DNA of 64,000 nucleotides, taken from the NCBI RefSeq assembly GCF_024502345.1, contig NZ_JALDNN010000001.1. One strand, written 5' to 3'. The notes below the pieces were generated by a model. The model ran no database searches, was not told the origin of the DNA, and saw only the letters and a program-made list of their open reading frames with translations. Positions 1 through 43,079 of the stretch are shown here, in pieces (within the stretch, counting starts at the first letter, position 1; every line of letters begins with the position of its first letter). The translations under genes and the position numbers were made by a program. This stretch comes from Escherichia coli (GTDB lineage: Bacteria; Pseudomonadota; Gammaproteobacteria; Enterobacterales; Enterobacteriaceae).

Positions 1-315
1 CAGCATGAACATCAGTTCTGCGAGTAAACCTCTGGACGCCAGAAAACGGCTTTGACGATGAGGGGGAATGTTTCGGGCTTCTTGATGACACTGGGAGGGG
101 AGACGAACAGAAATCAGATGTCCTTCCGTTAAAATCCCTCGGGCAAAGTGAGTCGCCATTTTTCGCTCCATGCTTAATGGTCCATTATGAATACAAGAGT
201 AATCATTTACTGGAATGATGGACAGACTAAAGCGGCTAAAAGTTCGATTCAGACAAGCTTATTACAACTTTTTTACATTTTATTGTGAAATTGGGTCGCG
301 TTTCATACGATTCGG

Positions 316-1275
316 TTATGCCATCGACGCGTAAAGGTTTTTAATGGTTTCCCGTAACCAGACGATCTTCGGATTATGGCTGTTCCGTTTATGCCACAGC
401 AGGGTAAAAGGAACTTCCAGCTTTTTTTGCTGGCTTTCGTCAAACGGGAGAGGAAGAGCAACCAACGGCAGTTGATGGAGTTGATTGTAGTACTGACAGT
501 AGCGCGGCGCGGTCGCCAGTAGCAGATTGTCGGGTTGCGCTGCCATAAACAGTGACTGCTCGAATTCCGGCAGGCTCATAGCAATCGTGCGTTCGCGCCC
601 CAGCTCCTGTAACACATTGTCCAGCGCCCAGGTGTCGCTCTGTTCCCAGCAAATGCTGATATGCGGATAACGTAAAAAGGTGTCCAGATTCCACGTTTCA
701 TGCAGTGCCGGATGATCTTTGCGTAACCAGACGCAGGGCACATCACTAAACAACACTTCATAATCAATGGCTAACGGTAGCGAGCTTAATAGCTCCCGCG
801 AGCGAGGATGACTTTCGCGACCGGAAAAACCAATATCCACTTCACCACGAGTAATGGCATCTAAGGAATCGTAATCCCAGTTACGTAATTTGATGGTCGC
901 CTGGGGGTAACGTTGGTAGATCCGTTTCGACAGCGCATTAAGCATGATCATCATCAGCGGTGATTCCGCCGCCAGTTCAAACTTCAGGCCGCGCGGTGTC
1001 TGGTGGTGCGGTTTATCCAGCAGCAGGTTGCTCATTTGCATCCATTCCGCCAGATTTTGCTCCATGCTGACCATTAGCGGTGTGGGCGACAGACCCAGCG
1101 GTGAGTTCACAAAGAGCGGGTCGTCAAACCACGCTCTTAACTTTGCCAGCGACTTACTCACCGCCGAAGGGGTCACGTTCATCCGCTTCGCCGCTTTGGT
1201 CACGCTGCGCTCCTGCATCAGCAGTTGCAGACAGAGCAGCAGATTGAGATCAAGCGTGGTGATGGATTTCTTCAT
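316..1275 (-). CDS. yidZ: LysR-family transcriptional regulator YidZ
   Basis: 319-aa ORF with N-terminal HTH and LysR substrate-binding architecture; position next to mdtL as in K-12. Confidence 0.85.
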
Positions 1276-2425
1276 GAGCGGCAGCGGGGCGTCCAGGCGC
1301 GACGAACATAATCAGCAACAGGCTCACTATGCTACAGGCAATCAGAATCCCGATCAGCATATTCCATGCGCCGATACCAACCACCGCCGCCAGCCAAATC
1401 CACAGTGACGAACCGCAAACCTGCGCAATACCTAAGGTCGAGCTGGCTACGCCCGCGCGTAATGAAAACGGGCCTAACGCCTGACTCATCGCCACACCAA
1501 AACCAACCGAGAAACCGGCGCAAATCAGCGTGATACCAAACAGAGAAACCGCATGGGAAGGTGAAACGGTAAGAGTGATGCCCGCCGCCAGGAATAACAC
1601 CTGTGAGGTGATCATCAACGTACGTGGCTTAAAAATTCCCAGCGCAAATGGCGTGGAAAATGAAACGGTCATGCTGACGCCAGCGGTCAACGCCATAATG
1701 GTGGCGTATTCTCCGCGCTCAAAACCCATGATTTCCATCAGCAATACCGGCGACGTGTTGACGAAGGTGAGGATCACCGAAACGCTGAGGGTGGTGATAA
1801 CAACACGGCTGAGGAAAAACCGATTAAGCAGCGACTCGCTATTTTCTCGTGATTTGTCCGAAGCTGCGGGGGCGGCAGGGCGCGTTTCTTTTAAAATAAA
1901 CAAAGACAACATCAGTACCGCGATGCCCATTATTGCCATCGTCCAGAACAGACTCTGCCACGGGAATTTAAGCATAATCAGATGACCGAGCACCGGCGCT
2001 AACACCGGAATGATGCAGGTAATGCCGTTGAGTAACGACAGCACTTTTGCCCGACGTCGATCATCCAGCGTGTCGCGCAAAATGGCGAATGCCACCACGT
2101 AACAACAGCCCGCGCCCAACCCCTGTAGAAAGCGCCCTGCAAGAAATAACGTGCTGGTTTCAGCCAGTGAACAGAACACCGAGGCGATAATAAATAGCGC
2201 CGCGCCTGGTATGGCGACAGGCTTTCTCCCTGAACGATCGGCCACTTTACCGGCAAATAACATCGCAGCTGCCATACCTGCCAGATAAACGGAGAACGCA
2301 ATATGTAACTGCGCTTCGCTGGCATTGAGATCGGCGGCGATGCGCGGTAAACCAACGAGGTACATATCAATCCCAGCGGGATAAAGTAAAACCAGGGCAA
2401 AACTACAAATCAAAAAGCGGGACAT
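1250..2425 (-). CDS. mdtL: MFS multidrug efflux transporter MdtL
   Basis: 391-aa polytopic membrane ORF; K-12 synteny between yidZ and tnaB. Confidence 0.85.
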
Positions 2426-2556
2426 GGGCTAAAGCGTCCTGATAGTAAGGTGACGCAAAGCATACGTGGTGAAGGAGGATCAGGCGAGTTGCCATTTGGA
2501 CATAAGTGATTTCCTGAGAGGCAAGAAGCCAGCGAATGACTGGCTTCTTGAAGGAT

Positions 2557-3804
2557 TTAGCCAAATTTAGGTAACACGTTAAAGACGTTGCCGAACCAGC
2601 ACAAAATTACGGTTATACCAAAGAGAATGACAATCGCCGGAATAAGATTGCCGCCCCAGACCGTGAACATCTGATTGGGAAACTTTTTGCGAGCTTTGAT
2701 TGCCAGCACCGCGGGGATAATGACCGCCCAGATGGTGGCGCACAGTCCGGCACCGCCGATCCCGTAAATAAAGCCGTTCGGGAAGATCAGATACAACAAC
2801 GCGGGTGGCAGGAAGGTTAACAGCACGGTTTTGAAACGCCCGCCGTGGGAGTTATCAATCTTAAACAGATCCGCCAGATAATCGAACAATCCCAGCGTGA
2901 CACCAAAGAACGAACTGGCAACAGCTAAGTTGGAGAACACCAGCAGGCAAAACTCGATAATGCCGTGCTGTTTGGTGCCGAGGAACGATTTCACCAGTGA
3001 ATCAACGTTGCCGCCTGAGGAGATAATCGCCTTAAAGCTTTCTCGCGGAATATTCCCCATGGTGCAATAGAGCCAGAAGAGATAAATCACCAGCGCCAGC
3101 AGCGAACCAAATACCACGCTTTTGATTAACTTATCTTTGCGTTTTCCATAGCAAATAATCAGGCTGGGAATATTGCCGTGGAAACCAAATGACGCCAGAC
3201 ACACCGGCAAAGCCATAAAGATATACGGGAAGTAAGACGTTCCCGCAGTGGTGCTGGTGGCATCGCGCAGGATGGAGTAATCGACCTGGAAGAAGAAAGA
3301 ACCAAACACGATCACAAAGGAGATAATCTTCAGCCCGAGGAACAATGAGGTAATGCGACTGGCGGCTAACGAACTTATCCACAATACGCTGGCAACGAAA
3401 ATGGCTGTGCAGATCCCGACAATACGTGGATTAGCGTGATAGCCCAAATTCATTGATATCGTTTCACTAATGATCGCACCATTAGCAGAGATATAGGCAT
3501 AAGTGAGGATATAGAGAACGAAGGCAACGGTAATACCGCTGATAATGTTCCAGGTGTTACCGATTAAATCTTTGGTGATGGTGTTAAAACTGGAGCCGAC
3601 AGGATAATTTAAATTTGCTTCTAATAACAATAACCCGGAATGAAGCATTGAAAACCAGGCAATGATAAGGATAAAGGCACCCCAGAAAAACCAGGCACCG
3701 GCAAGATCAACAGGTAAAGCAAACATACCTCCACCAATTACTGTACCTGCTATAACCATAACACCCCAAAATGCAGAGTGCTTTTTTTCAGCTTGATCAG
3801 TCAT
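2557..3804 (-). CDS. tnaB: low-affinity tryptophan permease
   Basis: 415-aa aromatic amino acid permease ORF directly downstream of tnaA. Confidence 0.9.
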   Translation of the reverse strand: MTDQAEKKHSAFWGVMVIAGTVIGGGMFALPVDLAGAWFFWGAFILIIAWFSMLHSGLLLLEANLNYPVGSSFNTITKDLIGNTWNIISGITVAFVLYILTYAYISANGAIISETISMNLGYHANPRIVGICTAIFVASVLWISSLAASRITSLFLGLKIISFVIVFGSFFFQVDYSILRDATSTTAGTSYFPYIFMALPVCLASFGFHGNIPSLIICYGKRKDKLIKSVVFGSLLALVIYLFWLYCTMGNIPRESFKAIISSGGNVDSLVKSFLGTKQHGIIEFCLLVFSNLAVASSFFGVTLGLFDYLADLFKIDNSHGGRFKTVLLTFLPPALLYLIFPNGFIYGIGGAGLCATIWAVIIPAVLAIKARKKFPNQMFTVWGGNLIPAIVILFGITVILCWFGNVFNVLPKFG

Positions 3805-38929: not shown

Positions 38930-40114
38930 TTAAACGGGCTGCCCCTGATGCGACATCCGCGTCGCCAGCGGCAGCCAGCACAGCACGATCAACAATCCCA
39001 TTAAGGTCATCAATAACCCCAGGCTACCCTGACCGGTTTGCGGCAACATCGCAGAGAGCGACGCCAGCACGCCGGAACCAATGTTTTGCAGACCGCCGAC
39101 CAGCGCGCCAGCCGTGCCCGCCAGGAAGGGGAACGGCTCCATCGCGCCGCTGGTCGCCAGCGGAAACAGCATCCCGGCACCGAAAAAGAACAGCGCGGCG
39201 GGAACGAGCAGCGTCCAGACATTCATCACGCCAAACCAGTCGGGGATCCACATCAGCAAGCCAGCCAGCAGGCAGCAGATAACCGACTGCCACATTAACG
39301 TGGAGAAGCGTTTATTGGGACGTCCGGCAAACCATGCGCCAAAAAACGCTGCCGGAATCGGCAGAATAAACAAAATACTGACCGTCATACTGCTCAGCCC
39401 TAACACCGCGCCCATCAGCACGCCGGAGCAGGCTTCAAAGGCGGCAATCCCGGCCAGACCGCCAATCAGCATCAGCAAATAACAGTTAAAACCGCTGTTA
39501 CCGAAAAGCGTTTTATAACTGGTAAGCAGGCGCGTGCGCGGTGCATCGACAGGACGCGTTTCCGGCATCCAGCGGGCCATACTGAAGGTCACACCAGCAC
39601 AAAGAACCAACAAAAAGAGATAACAGGCGCGCCAGTTCCACATCGTATCCAGCAGACCGCCGATTAGCGGTGCGAGCAACGGACTGACGAGAATCCCCAT
39701 GTTTAACAGGCTGTTAGCATGGCGCAACTGTGTCCGTTCATATAAATCTCGCGGCAAAGTACGCGCCATTACGCCGCCAACGCCGGTGCCCATCCCCTGC
39801 ATCGCGCTGGCGGCAATCAACACCGTCAAACTGGAGGTCGTGACCGCGACCAGCGTTGCCAGCATAAAAATGGACATTCCGACGAGGATCACCGGTCGGC
39901 GACCCACACGGTCGGAAATCGGGCCATAAAACAGCTGTGAGACACCGTAAGTCAGCAGATAAGCGCCCATTACGCTCTGCACCGCCCCTTCACGGACGTT
40001 GAGATCGCGCGCCATATCGGCAATAGCTGGAATATAAATGGTTTGCGCCATCTGACCGACGGCCACGAGTAATACCAACATCAATAACAAATTGACGTTT
40101 CTATGCCTTTTCAT
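38930..40114 (-). CDS. emrD: MFS multidrug efflux transporter EmrD
   Basis: Start at MKRHRNVNLLLML (ATG 40112-40114). Confidence 0.9.
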   Translation of the reverse strand: MKRHRNVNLLLMLVLLVAVGQMAQTIYIPAIADMARDLNVREGAVQSVMGAYLLTYGVSQLFYGPISDRVGRRPVILVGMSIFMLATLVAVTTSSLTVLIAASAMQGMGTGVGGVMARTLPRDLYERTQLRHANSLLNMGILVSPLLAPLIGGLLDTMWNWRACYLFLLVLCAGVTFSMARWMPETRPVDAPRTRLLTSYKTLFGNSGFNCYLLMLIGGLAGIAAFEACSGVLMGAVLGLSSMTVSILFILPIPAAFFGAWFAGRPNKRFSTLMWQSVICCLLAGLLMWIPDWFGVMNVWTLLVPAALFFFGAGMLFPLATSGAMEPFPFLAGTAGALVGGLQNIGSGVLASLSAMLPQTGQGSLGLLMTLMGLLIVLCWLPLATRMSHQGQPV

Positions 40115-40274
40115 TATCACGGATGCTTTTATAAAAATAATTAGAATAAGTCACTACGCATTCCCATAAATGCGGGAGAGGAATCTATCACATTGATGAA
40201 TGCTAGCCAGATATGTGCCGGGAATGGCGAAAAGCAAAACGGCAGAATATGTAAACAAAAGCGGCAATAAATGT

Positions 40275-40420
40275 TGCCGGAAGGGATTACGTGCGAACTG
40301 TAACCCTCTCCCTGAAAGGGCGAGGGGGAAACCACCGTTCCCTTTCAGAAAATGAGCTAAACATTGCACGGGACGGTCCCCTCGCCCCTTTGGGGAGAGG
40401 GCTAGGGTGAGGGGCACAGG
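40275..40420. repeat. GC-rich inverted-repeat intergenic element (family unassigned)
   Basis: ccctctccctgaaagggcgaggggg (about 40305-40329) and its near reverse complement cccctcgcccctttggggagaggg (about 40377-40400) flank a roughly 50-bp spacer. Confidence 0.4.
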
Positions 40421-40477
40421 CAGCGCAGGTGCAAACATTCTGCTGGTAGAAGAAGCCCCCAACTCCAACCCGCACGC

Positions 40478-40510
40478 TAAATATAAAAGGGGAGCGGTTA
40501 CCCGCTCCCC
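40478..40510 (-). terminator. intrinsic terminator of tisAB transcript
   Basis: Hairpin ggggagcggttacccgctcccc with an adjacent T-rich run on the minus strand, just downstream of tisB stop. Confidence 0.55.
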
Positions 40511-40532
40511 TTTGGTGCGACTTGAATCTGAA

Positions 40533-40622
40533 TTACTTCAGGTATTTCAGAACAGCATCAAGCAGTTGCAGTGCTGCAACAATGAGTTTGAGGATAAGAA
40601 TGGCGATATCCACCAGGCTCAT
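40533..40622 (-). CDS. tisB: type I toxin TisB (29 aa, SOS-induced membrane peptide)
   Basis: Minus-strand translation MSLVDIAILILKLIVAALQLLDAVLKYLK then stop; below ORF track cut-off. Confidence 0.85.
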   Translation of the reverse strand: MSLVDIAILILKLIVAALQLLDAVLKYLK

Positions 40623-40724
40623 ACGCGTCTCCTGTGGTTCAGGAGCACTGCCAGCTGACGTACCTTTCCGCTGCCTGTTGCCAGCTGTTGTGCACGCGGT
40701 ATCTCAAGGAGAAACGTTGTGCTT

Positions 40725-40745
40725 GTTGACATAACACAGTGTGCT
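40725..40745 (-). promoter_or_regulatory. predicted IstR-1 pairing site in tisAB mRNA leader
   Basis: 21-nt stretch gttgacataacacagtgtgct is identical at 20 of 21 positions to the 5' end of istR-1 (40983-41003), so the minus-strand transcript is complementary to IstR-1; about 100 nt upstream of tisB start. Confidence 0.5.
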
Positions 40746-40856
40746 CACGCGGGGTTAAGGCGCTGACGGCACCACCCGTTTCAGCCAGGACTTAGTGCGC
40801 CGGGTAACGATGCGGCCCCCGCATAACACATTGCGTACAGTGATATTATAGAAGTT

Positions 40857-40876
40857 TGCTGTATAAATAAACAGTA
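40857..40876. promoter_or_regulatory. LexA box (SOS operator)
   Basis: tgctgtataaataaacagta matches the CTGT-N8-ACAG consensus; located between divergent tisAB and istR. Confidence 0.7.
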
Positions 40877-40982
40877 ATTTTTGGACAAAACGCAAACTGT
40901 GATCGATACTCAACTATGTACTAAATACGTCAAAATTCGTGCCGAAATTGCGCGTTCTGCGCGGAACAGGTATACTTTCAGT

Positions 40983-41057
40983 GTTGACATAATACAGTGT
41001 GCTTTGCGGTTACCAGCCGCAGGCGGCTGACGAAACCTCGCTCCGGCGGGGTTTTTT
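40983..41057 (+). ncRNA. istR: antitoxin sRNA IstR-1
   Basis: 75-nt unit ending in a T-run terminator (41052-41057), preceded by a tatact -10 at 40971-40976; divergent from tisB. Confidence 0.65.
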
Positions 41058-41186
41058 GTTACCTGCAATTCAGTGCAAAACGTGATCAACCCCTCAATTT
41101 TCCCTTGCTGAAAAATTTTCCATTGTCTCCCCTGTAAAGCTGTGCTTGTATAAATATTGTTAAACACAAAACCAACAAGGTCCCCA

Positions 41187-41285
41187 ATGACTACTTCCAT
41201 GTTCAACGCAAAACTACTACCAACTGCGCCATCCGCCGCAGTGGTCGTCGTGCGTGTGGTGGTGGTCGTCGGCAATGCGCCGTAG
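41187..41285 (+). CDS. ivbL: ilvB operon leader peptide (32 aa)
   Basis: Translation MTTSMFNAKLLPTAPSAAVVVVRVVVVVGNAP then stop; Val/Leu-rich regulatory run; below ORF track cut-off. Confidence 0.85.
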   Translation: MTTSMFNAKLLPTAPSAAVVVVRVVVVVGNAP

Positions 41286-41312
41286 GGACTGGAACAACAC
41301 ACGATTCCAAAA

Positions 41313-41342
41313 CCCCGCCGGCGCAAACCGGGCGGGGTTTTT
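41313..41342 (+). terminator. ilvBN attenuator terminator
   Basis: Hairpin ccccgccggcgcaaaccgggcgggg followed by T5, between ivbL and ilvB. Confidence 0.6.
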
Positions 41343-41390
41343 CGTTTAAGCACCTCCCGGAAAGTCGGCCCAGAAGAAAAGGACTGGAGC

Positions 41391-43079
41391 ATGGCAAGTT
41401 CGGGCACAACATCGACGCGTAAGCGCTTTACCGGCGCAGAATTTATCGTTCATTTCCTGGAACAGCAGGGCATTAAGATTGTGACGGGCATTCCGGGCGG
41501 TTCTATCCTGCCTGTTTACGATGCCTTAAGCCAAAGCACGCAAATCCGCCATATTCTGGCCCGTCATGAACAGGGCGCGGGATTTATCGCTCAGGGGATG
41601 GCGCGCACCGACGGTAAACCGGCGGTCTGTATGGCCTGTAGCGGACCGGGTGCGACTAACCTGGTGACCGCCATTGCCGATGCGCGGCTGGACTCCATCC
41701 CGCTGATTTGCATCACCGGTCAGGTTCCCGCCTCGATGATCGGCACCGACGCCTTCCAGGAAGTGGACACCTACGGCATCTCTATCCCCATCACCAAACA
41801 CAACTATCTGGTCAGACATATCGAAGAACTCCCGCAGGTCATGAGCGATGCCTTCCGCATTGCGCAATCAGGCCGCCCAGGCCCGGTGTGGATAGACATT
41901 CCTAAGGATGTGCAAACGGCAGTTTTTGAGATTGAAACACAGCCCGCTATGGCAGAAAAAGCCGCCGCCCCCGCCTTTAGCGAAGAAAGCATTCGTGACG
42001 CAGCGGCGATGATTAACGCTGCCAAACGCCCGGTGCTTTATCTGGGCGGCGGTGTGATCAATGCGCCCGCACGGGTGCGTGAACTGGCGGAGAAAGCGCA
42101 ACTGCCTACCACCATGACTTTAATGGCGCTGGGCATGTTGCCAAAAGCGCATCCGTTGTCGCTGGGTATGCTGGGGATGCACGGCGTGCGCAGCACCAAC
42201 TATATTTTGCAGGAGGCGGATTTGTTGATAGTGCTCGGTGCGCGTTTTGATGACCGGGCGATTGGCAAAACCGAGCAGTTCTGTCCGAATGCCAAAATTA
42301 TTCATGTCGATATCGATCGCGCAGAGCTGGGTAAAATCAAGCAGCCGCATGTGGCGATTCAGGCTGATGTTGATGACGTGCTGGCGCAATTGATCCCGCA
42401 GGTGGAAGCGCAACCGCGTGCAGAGTGGCACCAGTTGGTAGCGGATTTGCAGCGCGAATTCCCGTGTCCAATCCCGAAAGCGTGCGATCCATTAAGCCAT
42501 TACGGCCTGATCAACGCCGTTGCCGCCTGTGTCGATGACAATGCGATTATCACCACCGATGTGGGTCAGCATCAGATGTGGACCGCGCAAGCTTATCCGC
42601 TCAATCGCCCACGCCAGTGGCTGACCTCCGGTGGGCTGGGCACGATGGGTTTTGGCCTGCCTGCGGCGATTGGCGCGGCGCTGGCGAACCCGGATCGCAA
42701 AGTGTTGTGTTTCTCCGGCGACGGCAGCCTGATGATGAATATTCAGGAGATGGCGACCGCCAGTGAAAATCAGCTGGATGTCAAAATCATTCTGATGAAC
42801 AACGAAGCGCTGGGGCTGGTGCATCAGCAACAGAGTCTGTTCTACGAGCAAGGCGTTTTTGCCGCCACCTATCCGGGCAAAATCAACTTTATGCAGATTG
42901 CCGCCGGATTCGGCCTCGAAACCTGTGATTTGAATAACGAAGCCGATCCGCAGGCTGCATTGCAGGAAATCATCAATCGCCCTGGCCCGGCGCTGATCCA
43001 TGTGCGCATTGATGCCGAAGAAAAAGTTTACCCGATGGTGCCGCCAGGTGCGGCGAATACTGAAATGGTGGGGGAATAA
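41391..43079 (+). CDS. ilvB: acetolactate synthase I large subunit
   Basis: 562-aa thiamine-diphosphate enzyme ORF downstream of ivbL. Confidence 0.95.
   Translation: MASSGTTSTRKRFTGAEFIVHFLEQQGIKIVTGIPGGSILPVYDALSQSTQIRHILARHEQGAGFIAQGMARTDGKPAVCMACSGPGATNLVTAIADARLDSIPLICITGQVPASMIGTDAFQEVDTYGISIPITKHNYLVRHIEELPQVMSDAFRIAQSGRPGPVWIDIPKDVQTAVFEIETQPAMAEKAAAPAFSEESIRDAAAMINAAKRPVLYLGGGVINAPARVRELAEKAQLPTTMTLMALGMLPKAHPLSLGMLGMHGVRSTNYILQEADLLIVLGARFDDRAIGKTEQFCPNAKIIHVDIDRAELGKIKQPHVAIQADVDDVLAQLIPQVEAQPRAEWHQLVADLQREFPCPIPKACDPLSHYGLINAVAACVDDNAIITTDVGQHQMWTAQAYPLNRPRQWLTSGGLGTMGFGLPAAIGAALANPDRKVLCFSGDGSLMMNIQEMATASENQLDVKIILMNNEALGLVHQQQSLFYEQGVFAATYPGKINFMQIAAGFGLETCDLNNEADPQAALQEIINRPGPALIHVRIDAEEKVYPMVPPGAANTEMVGE

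What the first reader, a model, noticed from the sequence alone, without database searches (positions are those of the whole stretch)
40275..40420. Large GC-rich inverted repeat in the emrD-tisB spacer
Two roughly 25-bp G/C-rich arms that are near reverse complements flank a roughly 50-bp spacer and could fold into a long stem-loop. The ORF track reports three overlapping spurious ORFs here, typical of repeat sequence. It is not a canonical REP, so its family is uncertain. Its position next to a toxin locus could matter for transcript insulation or mRNA stability.
Basis: seen in the sequence. Interest (0 to 1): 0.3.

Follow-up and report, generated by a model that had tools for sequence, protein, structure and literature searches.

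The report
Known BoxC repeat pair near tisB
The GC-rich inverted repeat between emrD and tisB is real, but it is an inverted pair of the already described E. coli BoxC (PIT/TMECO) intergenic repeat, sits at a strain-variable spot, and shows no sign of a locus-specific function.

Summary
Arms 40301-40327 and 40378-40404 are 27 nt long, 85% complementary and 50 nt apart. They fold into a long hairpin on either strand, well beyond shuffled controls.

The family is not unknown. The right arm plus its 3' extension (40379-40413) fits the published BoxC/PIT/TMECO consensus exactly. Its 36-mer at this locus (checked in strain SE11) is already in the catalogue of Holder et al. 2015. The left arm is a B-type BoxC on the other strand that has lost 12 nt, one purine block. 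An inverted A+B pair is a described BoxC layout; K-12's lldD-trmL pair has the same orientation.

Only the roughly 45-nt BoxC cores are multi-copy (median 14 places per E. coli genome). The spacer and outer flank are single-copy. About 1,500 of 5,426 complete E. coli genomes carry this pair. Another 2,819 carry a 37-nt REP-like palindrome at the same spot, as do other Escherichia species, so REP looks ancestral. A further 1,059 lack the whole tisB-istR cassette.

The element has no terminator shape, no Rfam match and no credible ORF. The published functional tests cited by Holder et al. were negative.

Verdict: already known, low interest.

The parts
40379..40414 (+). Complete A-type BoxC/TMECO core: CCCTCGCCC-CTTTG-GGGAGAGGG-CTA-GGGTGAGGG-G, three blocks with the potential to form an intrastrand triplex.
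   Evidence: A regex of the published consensus matches 40379-40413. The sequence differs by one base, in loop 2 (CTA instead of TTA), from K-12 TMECO numbers 7, 11 and 15. The identical 36-mer is listed 14 times in Suppl. Table S8 of PMC4666352. The SE11 entry maps between tisB and ysdE.
40363..40441 (+). Extended A-type BoxC unit: the core plus about 16 nt of 5' flank and about 27 nt of 3' flank, both shared with other copies.
   Evidence: Alignment A2 with six other A-type copies. GCACGGGACGGTCCCC aligns with GTGCTCGAACAGTCCCC, and CACAGGCAGCGCAGGTGCAAACATT aligns with AACAGCCAGCACTGGTGCGAACATT.
40304..40326 (-). Truncated B-type BoxC core. On the minus strand it reads CCCTCGCCC-TTTCA-GGGAGAGGG, that is two blocks (a hairpin); loop 2 and one purine block (12 nt) are missing.
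   Evidence: It matches K-12 TMECO number 10 at 28 of 28 bases across the core and 5' flank. The best local alignment to K-12 number 8 needs a 12-nt gap that removes one purine block. The flank after it matches the B-type 3' flank at 11 of 16 positions (shuffle p about 0.002).
40301..40404 (.). The large inverted repeat or long hairpin: 27-nt arms (40301-40327 and 40378-40404) plus an inner stem (about 40334-40341 with 40369-40376).
40328..40377 (.). The 50-nt inner spacer. It is single-copy in E. coli and made partly of the 5' flanks of the two BoxC units.
   Evidence: The spacer query (40326-40378) hits one place per genome, in 1,497 of 5,426 genomes, all at 99% identity or more. The 50-nt spacer aligns with the inner spacer of the K-12 lldD-trmL pair better than shuffles do (p about 0.002).
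40287..40455 (.). The whole strain-variable segment of about 169 nt. It stands where K-12-type genomes and other Escherichia species carry a 37-nt REP-like palindrome.
   Evidence: Alignment A1, outgroup loci and allele counts.
40486..40513 (-). Context: the tisB intrinsic terminator, a perfect 12-bp stem with a T-run on the minus strand. It is not part of the repeat.
   Evidence: (inverted pair I5).
40193..40270 (+). Context: the small ORF ysdE, convergent with tisB. The repeat lies between the 3' ends of the two genes.
   Evidence: ORF list. ysdE is annotated at the equivalent position in RefSeq records.

Best explanation
The feature is an inverted pair of BoxC elements, also called PIT or TMECO elements. 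BoxC is a known family of short, GC-rich intergenic repeats in enterobacteria. The right member is a complete A-type unit on the + strand. The left member is a B-type unit on the - strand that lost 12 nt, probably by slippage between its two directly repeated purine blocks. That leaves a plain hairpin.

Each core is itself a near-palindrome, so two cores in opposite orientation automatically make a long inverted repeat. I infer that the pair has no locus-specific regulatory job. It most likely behaves as a structure-prone passenger sequence. As single-stranded DNA it can form hairpin, cruciform or triplex structures that promote slippage, conversion and replacement. This makes the tisB-ysdE spacer an indel hot spot. 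In one part of the E. coli population the pair replaced an ancestral REP-like element.

Shown here: family identity, architecture, copy number, polymorphism and direction of change. Inferred: the slippage mechanism, the lack of function, and how the pair reached this site. The confidence of 0.8 is for the whole statement: about 0.95 for the BoxC identity and about 0.65 for the absence of a locus-specific function.
For: The right unit fits the published consensus 5'-CCCTCNCCCN3-6GGGNGAGGGN3GGGNGAGGG-3' exactly, and its similarity to other copies extends into the flanks. The left unit is identical to K-12 B-type core number 10, with a 12-nt gap that removes one purine block.

Inverted A+B pairs are a described feature of the family, with five in MG1655. 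The K-12 lldD-trmL pair has the same outward orientation.

The cores are dispersed at a median of 14 places per genome across 5,408 of 5,426 genomes, and the repeated part is only about 45 nt. This locus is already in the published catalogue.

The locus has three states: the BoxC pair in about 1,500 genomes, a REP-like element in 2,819, and no tisB cassette in 1,059. Four other Escherichia lineages carry the REP state.

Among five sampled carriers, all variation inside the segment but one 1-nt difference in a C-run in the outer flank falls in or beside the left unit: a loop reading TGAAA or CAAAG, and two point differences in one strain. That is consistent with conversion. Holder et al. found TMECO loci hypervariable, and palindromic pairs often partly deleted in a way that still allows a hairpin.

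The element has no terminator shape, no Rfam family at threshold and no Pfam domain in the four overlapping ORFs tested.
Against: Nothing contradicts the family assignment. Several points weaken the 'no function' part. A structured GC-rich palindrome, either REP or BoxC, occupies this exact spot in every tisB-bearing Escherichia examined, which could reflect selection for some structure there. The pair is nearly invariant among its roughly 1,500 carriers, although that may only reflect recent common descent. No transcript data were available. Loop 2 of the right unit reads CTA, which is neither canonical type A (TTA) nor type B (CCG). The mechanism that put the pair here is unknown.
Confidence: 0.8

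Rival explanations
1. RNA-level element. The long hairpin acts in the 3' region of ysdE (+) or of read-through tisB (-) transcripts. It would be a REP-like barrier to 3'-to-5' exonucleases, or an insulator between the convergent genes and the emrD promoter.
For: The RNA hairpin is very stable on both strands (-65 to -73 kcal/mol). The element sits between the 3' ends of convergent ysdE and tisB. It occupies the slot that holds a REP-like palindrome in other strains and species. From general knowledge, REPs can stabilise upstream mRNA.
Against: The element has no U-tract and no terminator-like call. It lies downstream of tisB's own perfect 12-bp terminator, so few tisB transcripts should reach it. 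PIT elements showed no promoter or terminator activity and no effect on RNA polymerase (Hoyne & Maher 2002, as summarised in PMC4666352). The element is absent from about 72% of E. coli genomes. Variation is too low to test covariation.
Confidence: 0.12
2. A MITE-like mobile composite. The two BoxC units would be the terminal inverted repeats of an element of about 130-170 bp that transposed into the spacer as a unit.
For: The pair is present or absent between strains. Its inner spacer aligns with that of the K-12 lldD-trmL outward pair better than shuffles do (p about 0.002), so the composite may have been copied as a unit.
Against: The spacer and the outer flank are strictly single-copy in all 5,426 genomes. 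The junctions show no target-site duplication, and the event is a replacement of REP rather than a simple insertion. No transposase is known for BoxC (general knowledge). The repeated part elsewhere is only the core of about 45 nt.
Confidence: 0.05
3. A protein-coding gene or a chance palindrome. One of the overlapping ORFs (for example 40154-40468 on the minus strand, 104 aa) would be real, or the repeat would be a compositional accident.
For: ORFs of 39-104 aa overlap the region.
Against: The four ORFs tested have no Pfam match. They all run through a segment missing from most E. coli genomes and from the other Escherichia lineages examined. No shuffle folds as well. The pattern search finds one hit in the window where 0.04 is expected by chance.
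Confidence: 0.01

Closest known systems
BoxC, also PIT elements and TMECO (Bergler 1992; Bachellier 1999; Hoyne 2000; Holder 2015, PMC4666352)
   Same: The right unit fits the consensus exactly, and its flanks are also similar to other copies. The element is intergenic and its core is dispersed in many copies. It forms an A+B inverted pair. The locus varies between strains. The same 36-mer at this locus is in the published catalogue.
   Different: Loop 2 reads CTA rather than TTA or CCG. The partner unit lacks one purine block and so cannot form a triplex. The pair has the rarer outward orientation, and its 50-nt inner spacer is longer than the 16-29 nt between units in the four inward K-12 pairs.
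K-12 TMECO pair 17+18 in the lldD-trmL spacer
   Same: The layout is the same: A-type on one strand, an inner spacer, B-type on the other strand, with the third blocks pointing outward. The inner spacers align weakly.
   Different: The K-12 pair keeps all three blocks in both units and has a 59-nt inner spacer. Sequence identity outside the cores is low.
REP / BIME (PU) elements
   Same: Both are short, GC-rich, palindromic intergenic repeats found between convergent genes. A REP-like unit occupies exactly this site in K-12-type E. coli and in other Escherichia species.
   Different: The sequences are unrelated. The window element has no GCCGGATG...CATCCGGC-type palindrome.
ERIC / IRU
   Same: It is an enterobacterial intergenic repeat with a long imperfect palindrome of about 127 bp, similar in overall size to this pair.
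   Different: The window has no match to either ERIC core at up to 3 mismatches (the primer sequences came from memory).

Membership tests
BoxC / PIT / TMECO | Core consensus 5'-CCCTCNCCCN3-6GGGNGAGGGN3GGGNGAGGG-3' (three blocks) | tested here: met
   The right unit at 40379-40413 on + matches exactly (consensus from PMC4666352). The left unit at 40304-40326 has only blocks 1-2, so taken alone it fails this test.
BoxC / PIT / TMECO | Dispersed in many copies across the E. coli chromosome | tested here: met
   blastn finds 72,870 places in 5,408 of 5,426 genomes, median 14 per genome. The repeated part corresponds to window 40365-40412.
BoxC / PIT / TMECO | Intergenic location | tested here: met
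   It lies between ysdE (ends 40270) and tisB (ends 40533). RefSeq annotates nothing under it.
BoxC / PIT / TMECO | Similarity to other copies extends beyond the core (BoxC was described as about 56 bp) | tested here: met
   Alignments A2 and A3 with K-12 and KE47 copies. The length of 56 bp and 32 copies are quoted in PMC2267715.
BoxC / PIT / TMECO | Pairs occur as an inverted type A + type B combination | tested here: met
   The right unit is A-like by its core and flanks. The left unit is a B-type core identical to K-12 number 10. Caveats: loop 2 of the A unit reads CTA, and the B unit is truncated.
BoxC / PIT / TMECO | Forms an intrastrand purine-motif triplex as single-stranded DNA in vitro | not testable with these tools
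   The folding tools model Watson-Crick pairs only. CD and NMR data exist for near-identical oligonucleotides with a TTA loop (PMC4666352).
BoxC / PIT / TMECO | The locus is hypervariable between closely related strains | tested here: met
   Three allelic states account for about 99% of 5,426 genomes.
REP / BIME | REP palindrome sequence | tested here: not met
   The window segment does not align with the REP-like unit that K-12 carries at the same site. I recognised that K-12 unit as REP from memory. Its multi-copy nature is shown.
ERIC / IRU | Conserved central inverted repeat (the ERIC1R and ERIC2 sequences) | tested here: not met
   No matches at up to 3 mismatches anywhere in the window.
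MITE | Several full-length copies with the same termini, and target-site duplications | tested here: not met
   The spacer and outer flank are single-copy in every genome. The junctions show no duplication.
Intrinsic terminator | GC-rich hairpin followed directly by a U-tract | tested here: not met
   The scan calls no site at the repeat on either strand. It does call the tisB terminator at 40513-40486 and a weak hairpin at 40279-40262.
Any Rfam RNA family | Score at or above the family's gathering threshold | tested here: not met
   Only istR passes (144.8 bits). The best hit on the repeat is mir-1275 at 19.7 bits against a threshold of 71.

The most novel reading that the evidence does not exclude
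The outward BoxC pair (A unit, inner spacer, B unit; about 130-170 nt) may be a composite that is copied between loci as a unit by an unknown mechanism. Sitting at the very edge of the tisB-istR cassette, it or its REP predecessor may be the recombination substrate behind loss or replacement of this toxin-antitoxin locus in about 20% of E. coli. A weaker variant of this reading is that the hairpin tunes ysdE, tisB or emrD expression in the lineages that carry it.
Probability: 0.08. Interest if true: 0.4.

Novelty: already known. Interest (0 to 1): 0.1.

Why it matters
The finding matters little in itself. It settles the family of an intergenic palindrome, which helps annotation because RefSeq records, including K-12, do not mark BoxC elements. 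It also adds a worked example to the published claim that these repeats mark unstable intergenic sites. Here a REP-like unit, a BoxC pair or nothing sits at the boundary of a type I toxin-antitoxin cassette that is itself gained or lost. Anyone comparing tisB regulation or persistence across E. coli lineages should know that the 3' flank differs between K-12-type and BoxC-pair-carrying strains.

Tried and rejected
- **Rfam scan of 39800-41500 at E up to 1.** Only istR is real; the hit on the repeat (mir-1275, 19.7 bits) is noise.
- **A second copy inside the 64-kb window.** There is none.
- **MITE idea.** I searched the spacer and the outer flank separately against 5,426 genomes. Both are single-copy, so I rejected it.
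- **Terminator idea.** No call at the repeat.
- **Coding idea.** No Pfam match.
- **ERIC.** No match.
- **First two literature searches.** The terms 'box C', 'BIME', 'IRU' and 'RSA' returned only noise; 'boxC' with 'repetitive extragenic palindromic' found the relevant papers.
- **MAFFT alignment of B-type units.** It did not open the 12-nt gap. A pairwise affine-gap alignment and a fixed-register shuffle test were needed to support the deletion.
- **Searches for ysdE or tisB papers on this spacer.** Nothing relevant came back.
- **Genome-contig scan.** I spent the single scan on a TisB C-terminal pattern to obtain outgroup loci. Salmonella, Citrobacter and Enterobacter carry tisB at a different locus, so only the four Escherichia lineages were informative.

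Full report
**Setting.** The window is E. coli chromosome. emrD lies at 38930-40120 on the minus strand and the small ORF ysdE at 40193-40270 on the plus strand. tisB lies at 40533-40622 on the minus strand. istR lies at 40928-41057 on the plus strand (Rfam, 144.8 bits). ivbL-ilvB follows, with ilvB starting at 41391. The finding therefore sits between the 3' ends of the convergent genes ysdE and tisB. It is beyond tisB's own terminator, a perfect 12-bp hairpin with a T-run at 40513-40486.

- The repeat finder reports arms at 40301-40327 and 40378-40404. They are 27 nt long, 85% complementary and 50 nt apart.
- As RNA, 40275-40420 folds to -72.8 kcal/mol on + and -67.3 on - (z = -5.5 and -4.9). 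No shuffle out of 200 folds as well.
- As single-stranded DNA, 40296-40416 gives about -30 kcal/mol on either strand.
- Forbidding long-range pairs costs about 19-21 kcal/mol in RNA, so the inter-arm stem is the preferred fold.
- Each arm is also a small hairpin of the form CCCTCNCCC, 5 nt, GGGNGAGGG.

**What it is.** A blastn of 40290-40420 against 5,426 complete E. coli genomes found 72,870 places, a median of 14 per genome. Hits at other loci and on plasmid records cover only the part corresponding to window 40365-40412. A literature search led to Holder et al. 2015 (PMC4666352). That paper treats the element first called BoxC (Bergler 1992), later PIT (Hoyne 2000), and there TMECO. Its consensus is 5'-CCCTCNCCCN3-6GGGNGAGGGN3GGGNGAGGG-3'.

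- **Right unit.** Window 40379-40413 fits that consensus exactly. It differs by one base, in loop 2 (CTA for TTA), from K-12 copies 7, 11 and 15. The identical 36-mer occurs 14 times in the paper's Supplementary Table S8. I checked one entry, SE11 NC_011415 4102670-4102635, and it lies between tisB and ysdE. So this element at this locus has already been catalogued.
- **Left unit.** On the minus strand it reads CCCTCGCCCTTTCAGGGAGAGGG. With its 5' flank this is identical, 28 of 28 bases, to K-12 type B copy 10. It is then followed by TTACAGTTCGCAC instead of loop 2 and a third purine block. The best local alignment to K-12 copy 8 opens a 12-nt gap that removes one purine block. The sequence after the gap matches the usual B-type 3' flank at 11 of 16 positions (fixed-register shuffle p about 0.002). 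I infer a slippage deletion between the two directly repeated GAGGG blocks.
- **Extended similarity.** For the A-type unit, similarity to other copies runs from about 40363 to 40441.
- **Pair layout.** Holder et al. report five inverted pairs in MG1655, each type A with type B. I fetched all five. Four have their third blocks facing inward. One, the lldD-trmL pair (copies 17 and 18), has them facing outward, as in the window. The inner spacers of the window pair and the lldD-trmL pair align better than shuffles do (p about 0.002). That is only suggestive that the composite was copied as a unit.

**What is and is not repeated.** The spacer query (40326-40378) and the outer flank (40413-40462) are each found once per genome. 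They occur in 1,497 and 1,509 of the 5,426 genomes, always at this locus. The whole feature is therefore not a multi-copy mobile element. Only its BoxC cores are repeated.

**The site is polymorphic.** Three allelic states together cover about 99% of the 5,426 genomes.
- **REP allele.** K-12-type genomes carry a 37-nt REP-like palindrome (GGTAGGGCGGATAAGATGCGTCAGCATCGCATCCGAC) in place of window 40287-40455 or so. A junction query spanning it is found nearly full-length in 2,819 genomes, and its core is itself multi-copy.
- **tisB-less allele.** In 1,059 genomes the whole tisB-istR cassette is replaced by about 150 nt of unrelated sequence. The emrD-side breakpoint lies within about 5 nt of the left edge of the repeat segment.
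- **BoxC-pair allele.** This is the allele in the window, present in about 1,500 genomes.

**Direction of change.** A scan of one genome per species for the TisB C-terminus gave four other Escherichia lineages, including E. whittamii. All have tisB, the terminator, a REP or REP remnant, ysdE and emrD, and none has BoxC. In Salmonella, Citrobacter and Enterobacter, tisB sits elsewhere. So REP is the older state, and the BoxC pair is a derived replacement within E. coli.

**Variation among carriers.** Five carriers were aligned over the segment. Apart from a 1-nt difference in a C-run in the outer flank of one strain, all variation falls in or beside the left unit. Its loop reads TGAAA in the window, 88-3493 and O121. 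It reads CAAAG in NT1W25 and SE11, where the arms become 26 of 27 complementary. These clustered changes look like conversion rather than independent point mutation (inference).

**Function.**
- Neither strand shows a hairpin followed by a U-tract at the repeat.
- No Rfam family reaches its threshold there.
- None of the four overlapping ORFs tested has a Pfam match.
- The literature summarised in PMC4666352 reports several results. PIT elements block DNA polymerase in vitro. They show no promoter or terminator activity and no effect on RNA polymerase. Triplex formation is seen for single strands in vitro but not in vivo. TMECO loci are more variable between strains than control intergenic sites. 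Palindromic pairs are often partly deleted yet still able to form a hairpin.
- This locus fits that description closely.

My best reading is a structure-prone passenger repeat that marks an indel hot spot at the edge of the tisB-istR cassette. A structured palindrome, REP or BoxC, occupies this slot in every tisB-bearing Escherichia I examined. But nothing I could compute supports the idea, and the published functional tests argue against it.

**Verdict.** Novelty: already known. Interest: low.

Noticed in passing
window 40284-41108; L003 1884-2030: The whole tisB-istR cassette is missing from 1,059 of 5,426 complete E. coli genomes. It is replaced by about 150 nt of unrelated sequence. The emrD-side breakpoint falls within about 5 nt of the left edge of the BoxC/REP segment.
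   Followed up: partly
L001 about 679-715 (K-12-type); L006: K-12-type genomes carry a 37-nt REP-like palindrome exactly where the window has the BoxC pair. It is multi-copy but is not annotated as a repeat in NC_000913.3. None of the five K-12 BoxC pairs is annotated either.
   Followed up: partly
window 40193-40270 (+): The window's ysdE (MMNASQICAGNGEKQNGRICKQKRQ) differs from the K-12/NT1W25 type in a clustered patch of about 30 nt (alignment A1, columns 104-128). In that patch it resembles an outgroup Escherichia lineage (L128). Only 2 of 5,426 genomes match the 1-kb region at 99% or more.
   Followed up: no
window 40262-40279 (-): A weak terminator-like hairpin (CGGCAACATTTATTGCCG followed by CTTTTGTTTA) lies on the minus strand, overlaps the ysdE stop codon, and is conserved in all three alleles aligned. 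Together with the tisB terminator it brackets the repeat on the minus strand.
   Followed up: no
These hold 146 motifs, 123 of them distinct, in contigs of 32-74% GC, with four close inverted pairs. Holder et al. reported no association with phages or plasmids. Host-flank contamination of these contigs was not checked.
   Followed up: partly
window 40501-40520 vs 40379-40398: One arm of the tisB terminator (CCCGCTCCCCTTTGGTGCGA) is 80% identical to the first block and loop of the BoxC unit. It could pair with the BoxC unit at 75-76% complementarity (D1, I2, I3). This is probably compositional.
   Followed up: no
L129, L132, L133, L136-L138, L140: In Citrobacter, Salmonella diarizonae and Enterobacter, tisB and its terminator are followed by a different gene rather than by ysdE-emrD. 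So the cassette sits at a different locus outside Escherichia.
   Followed up: no
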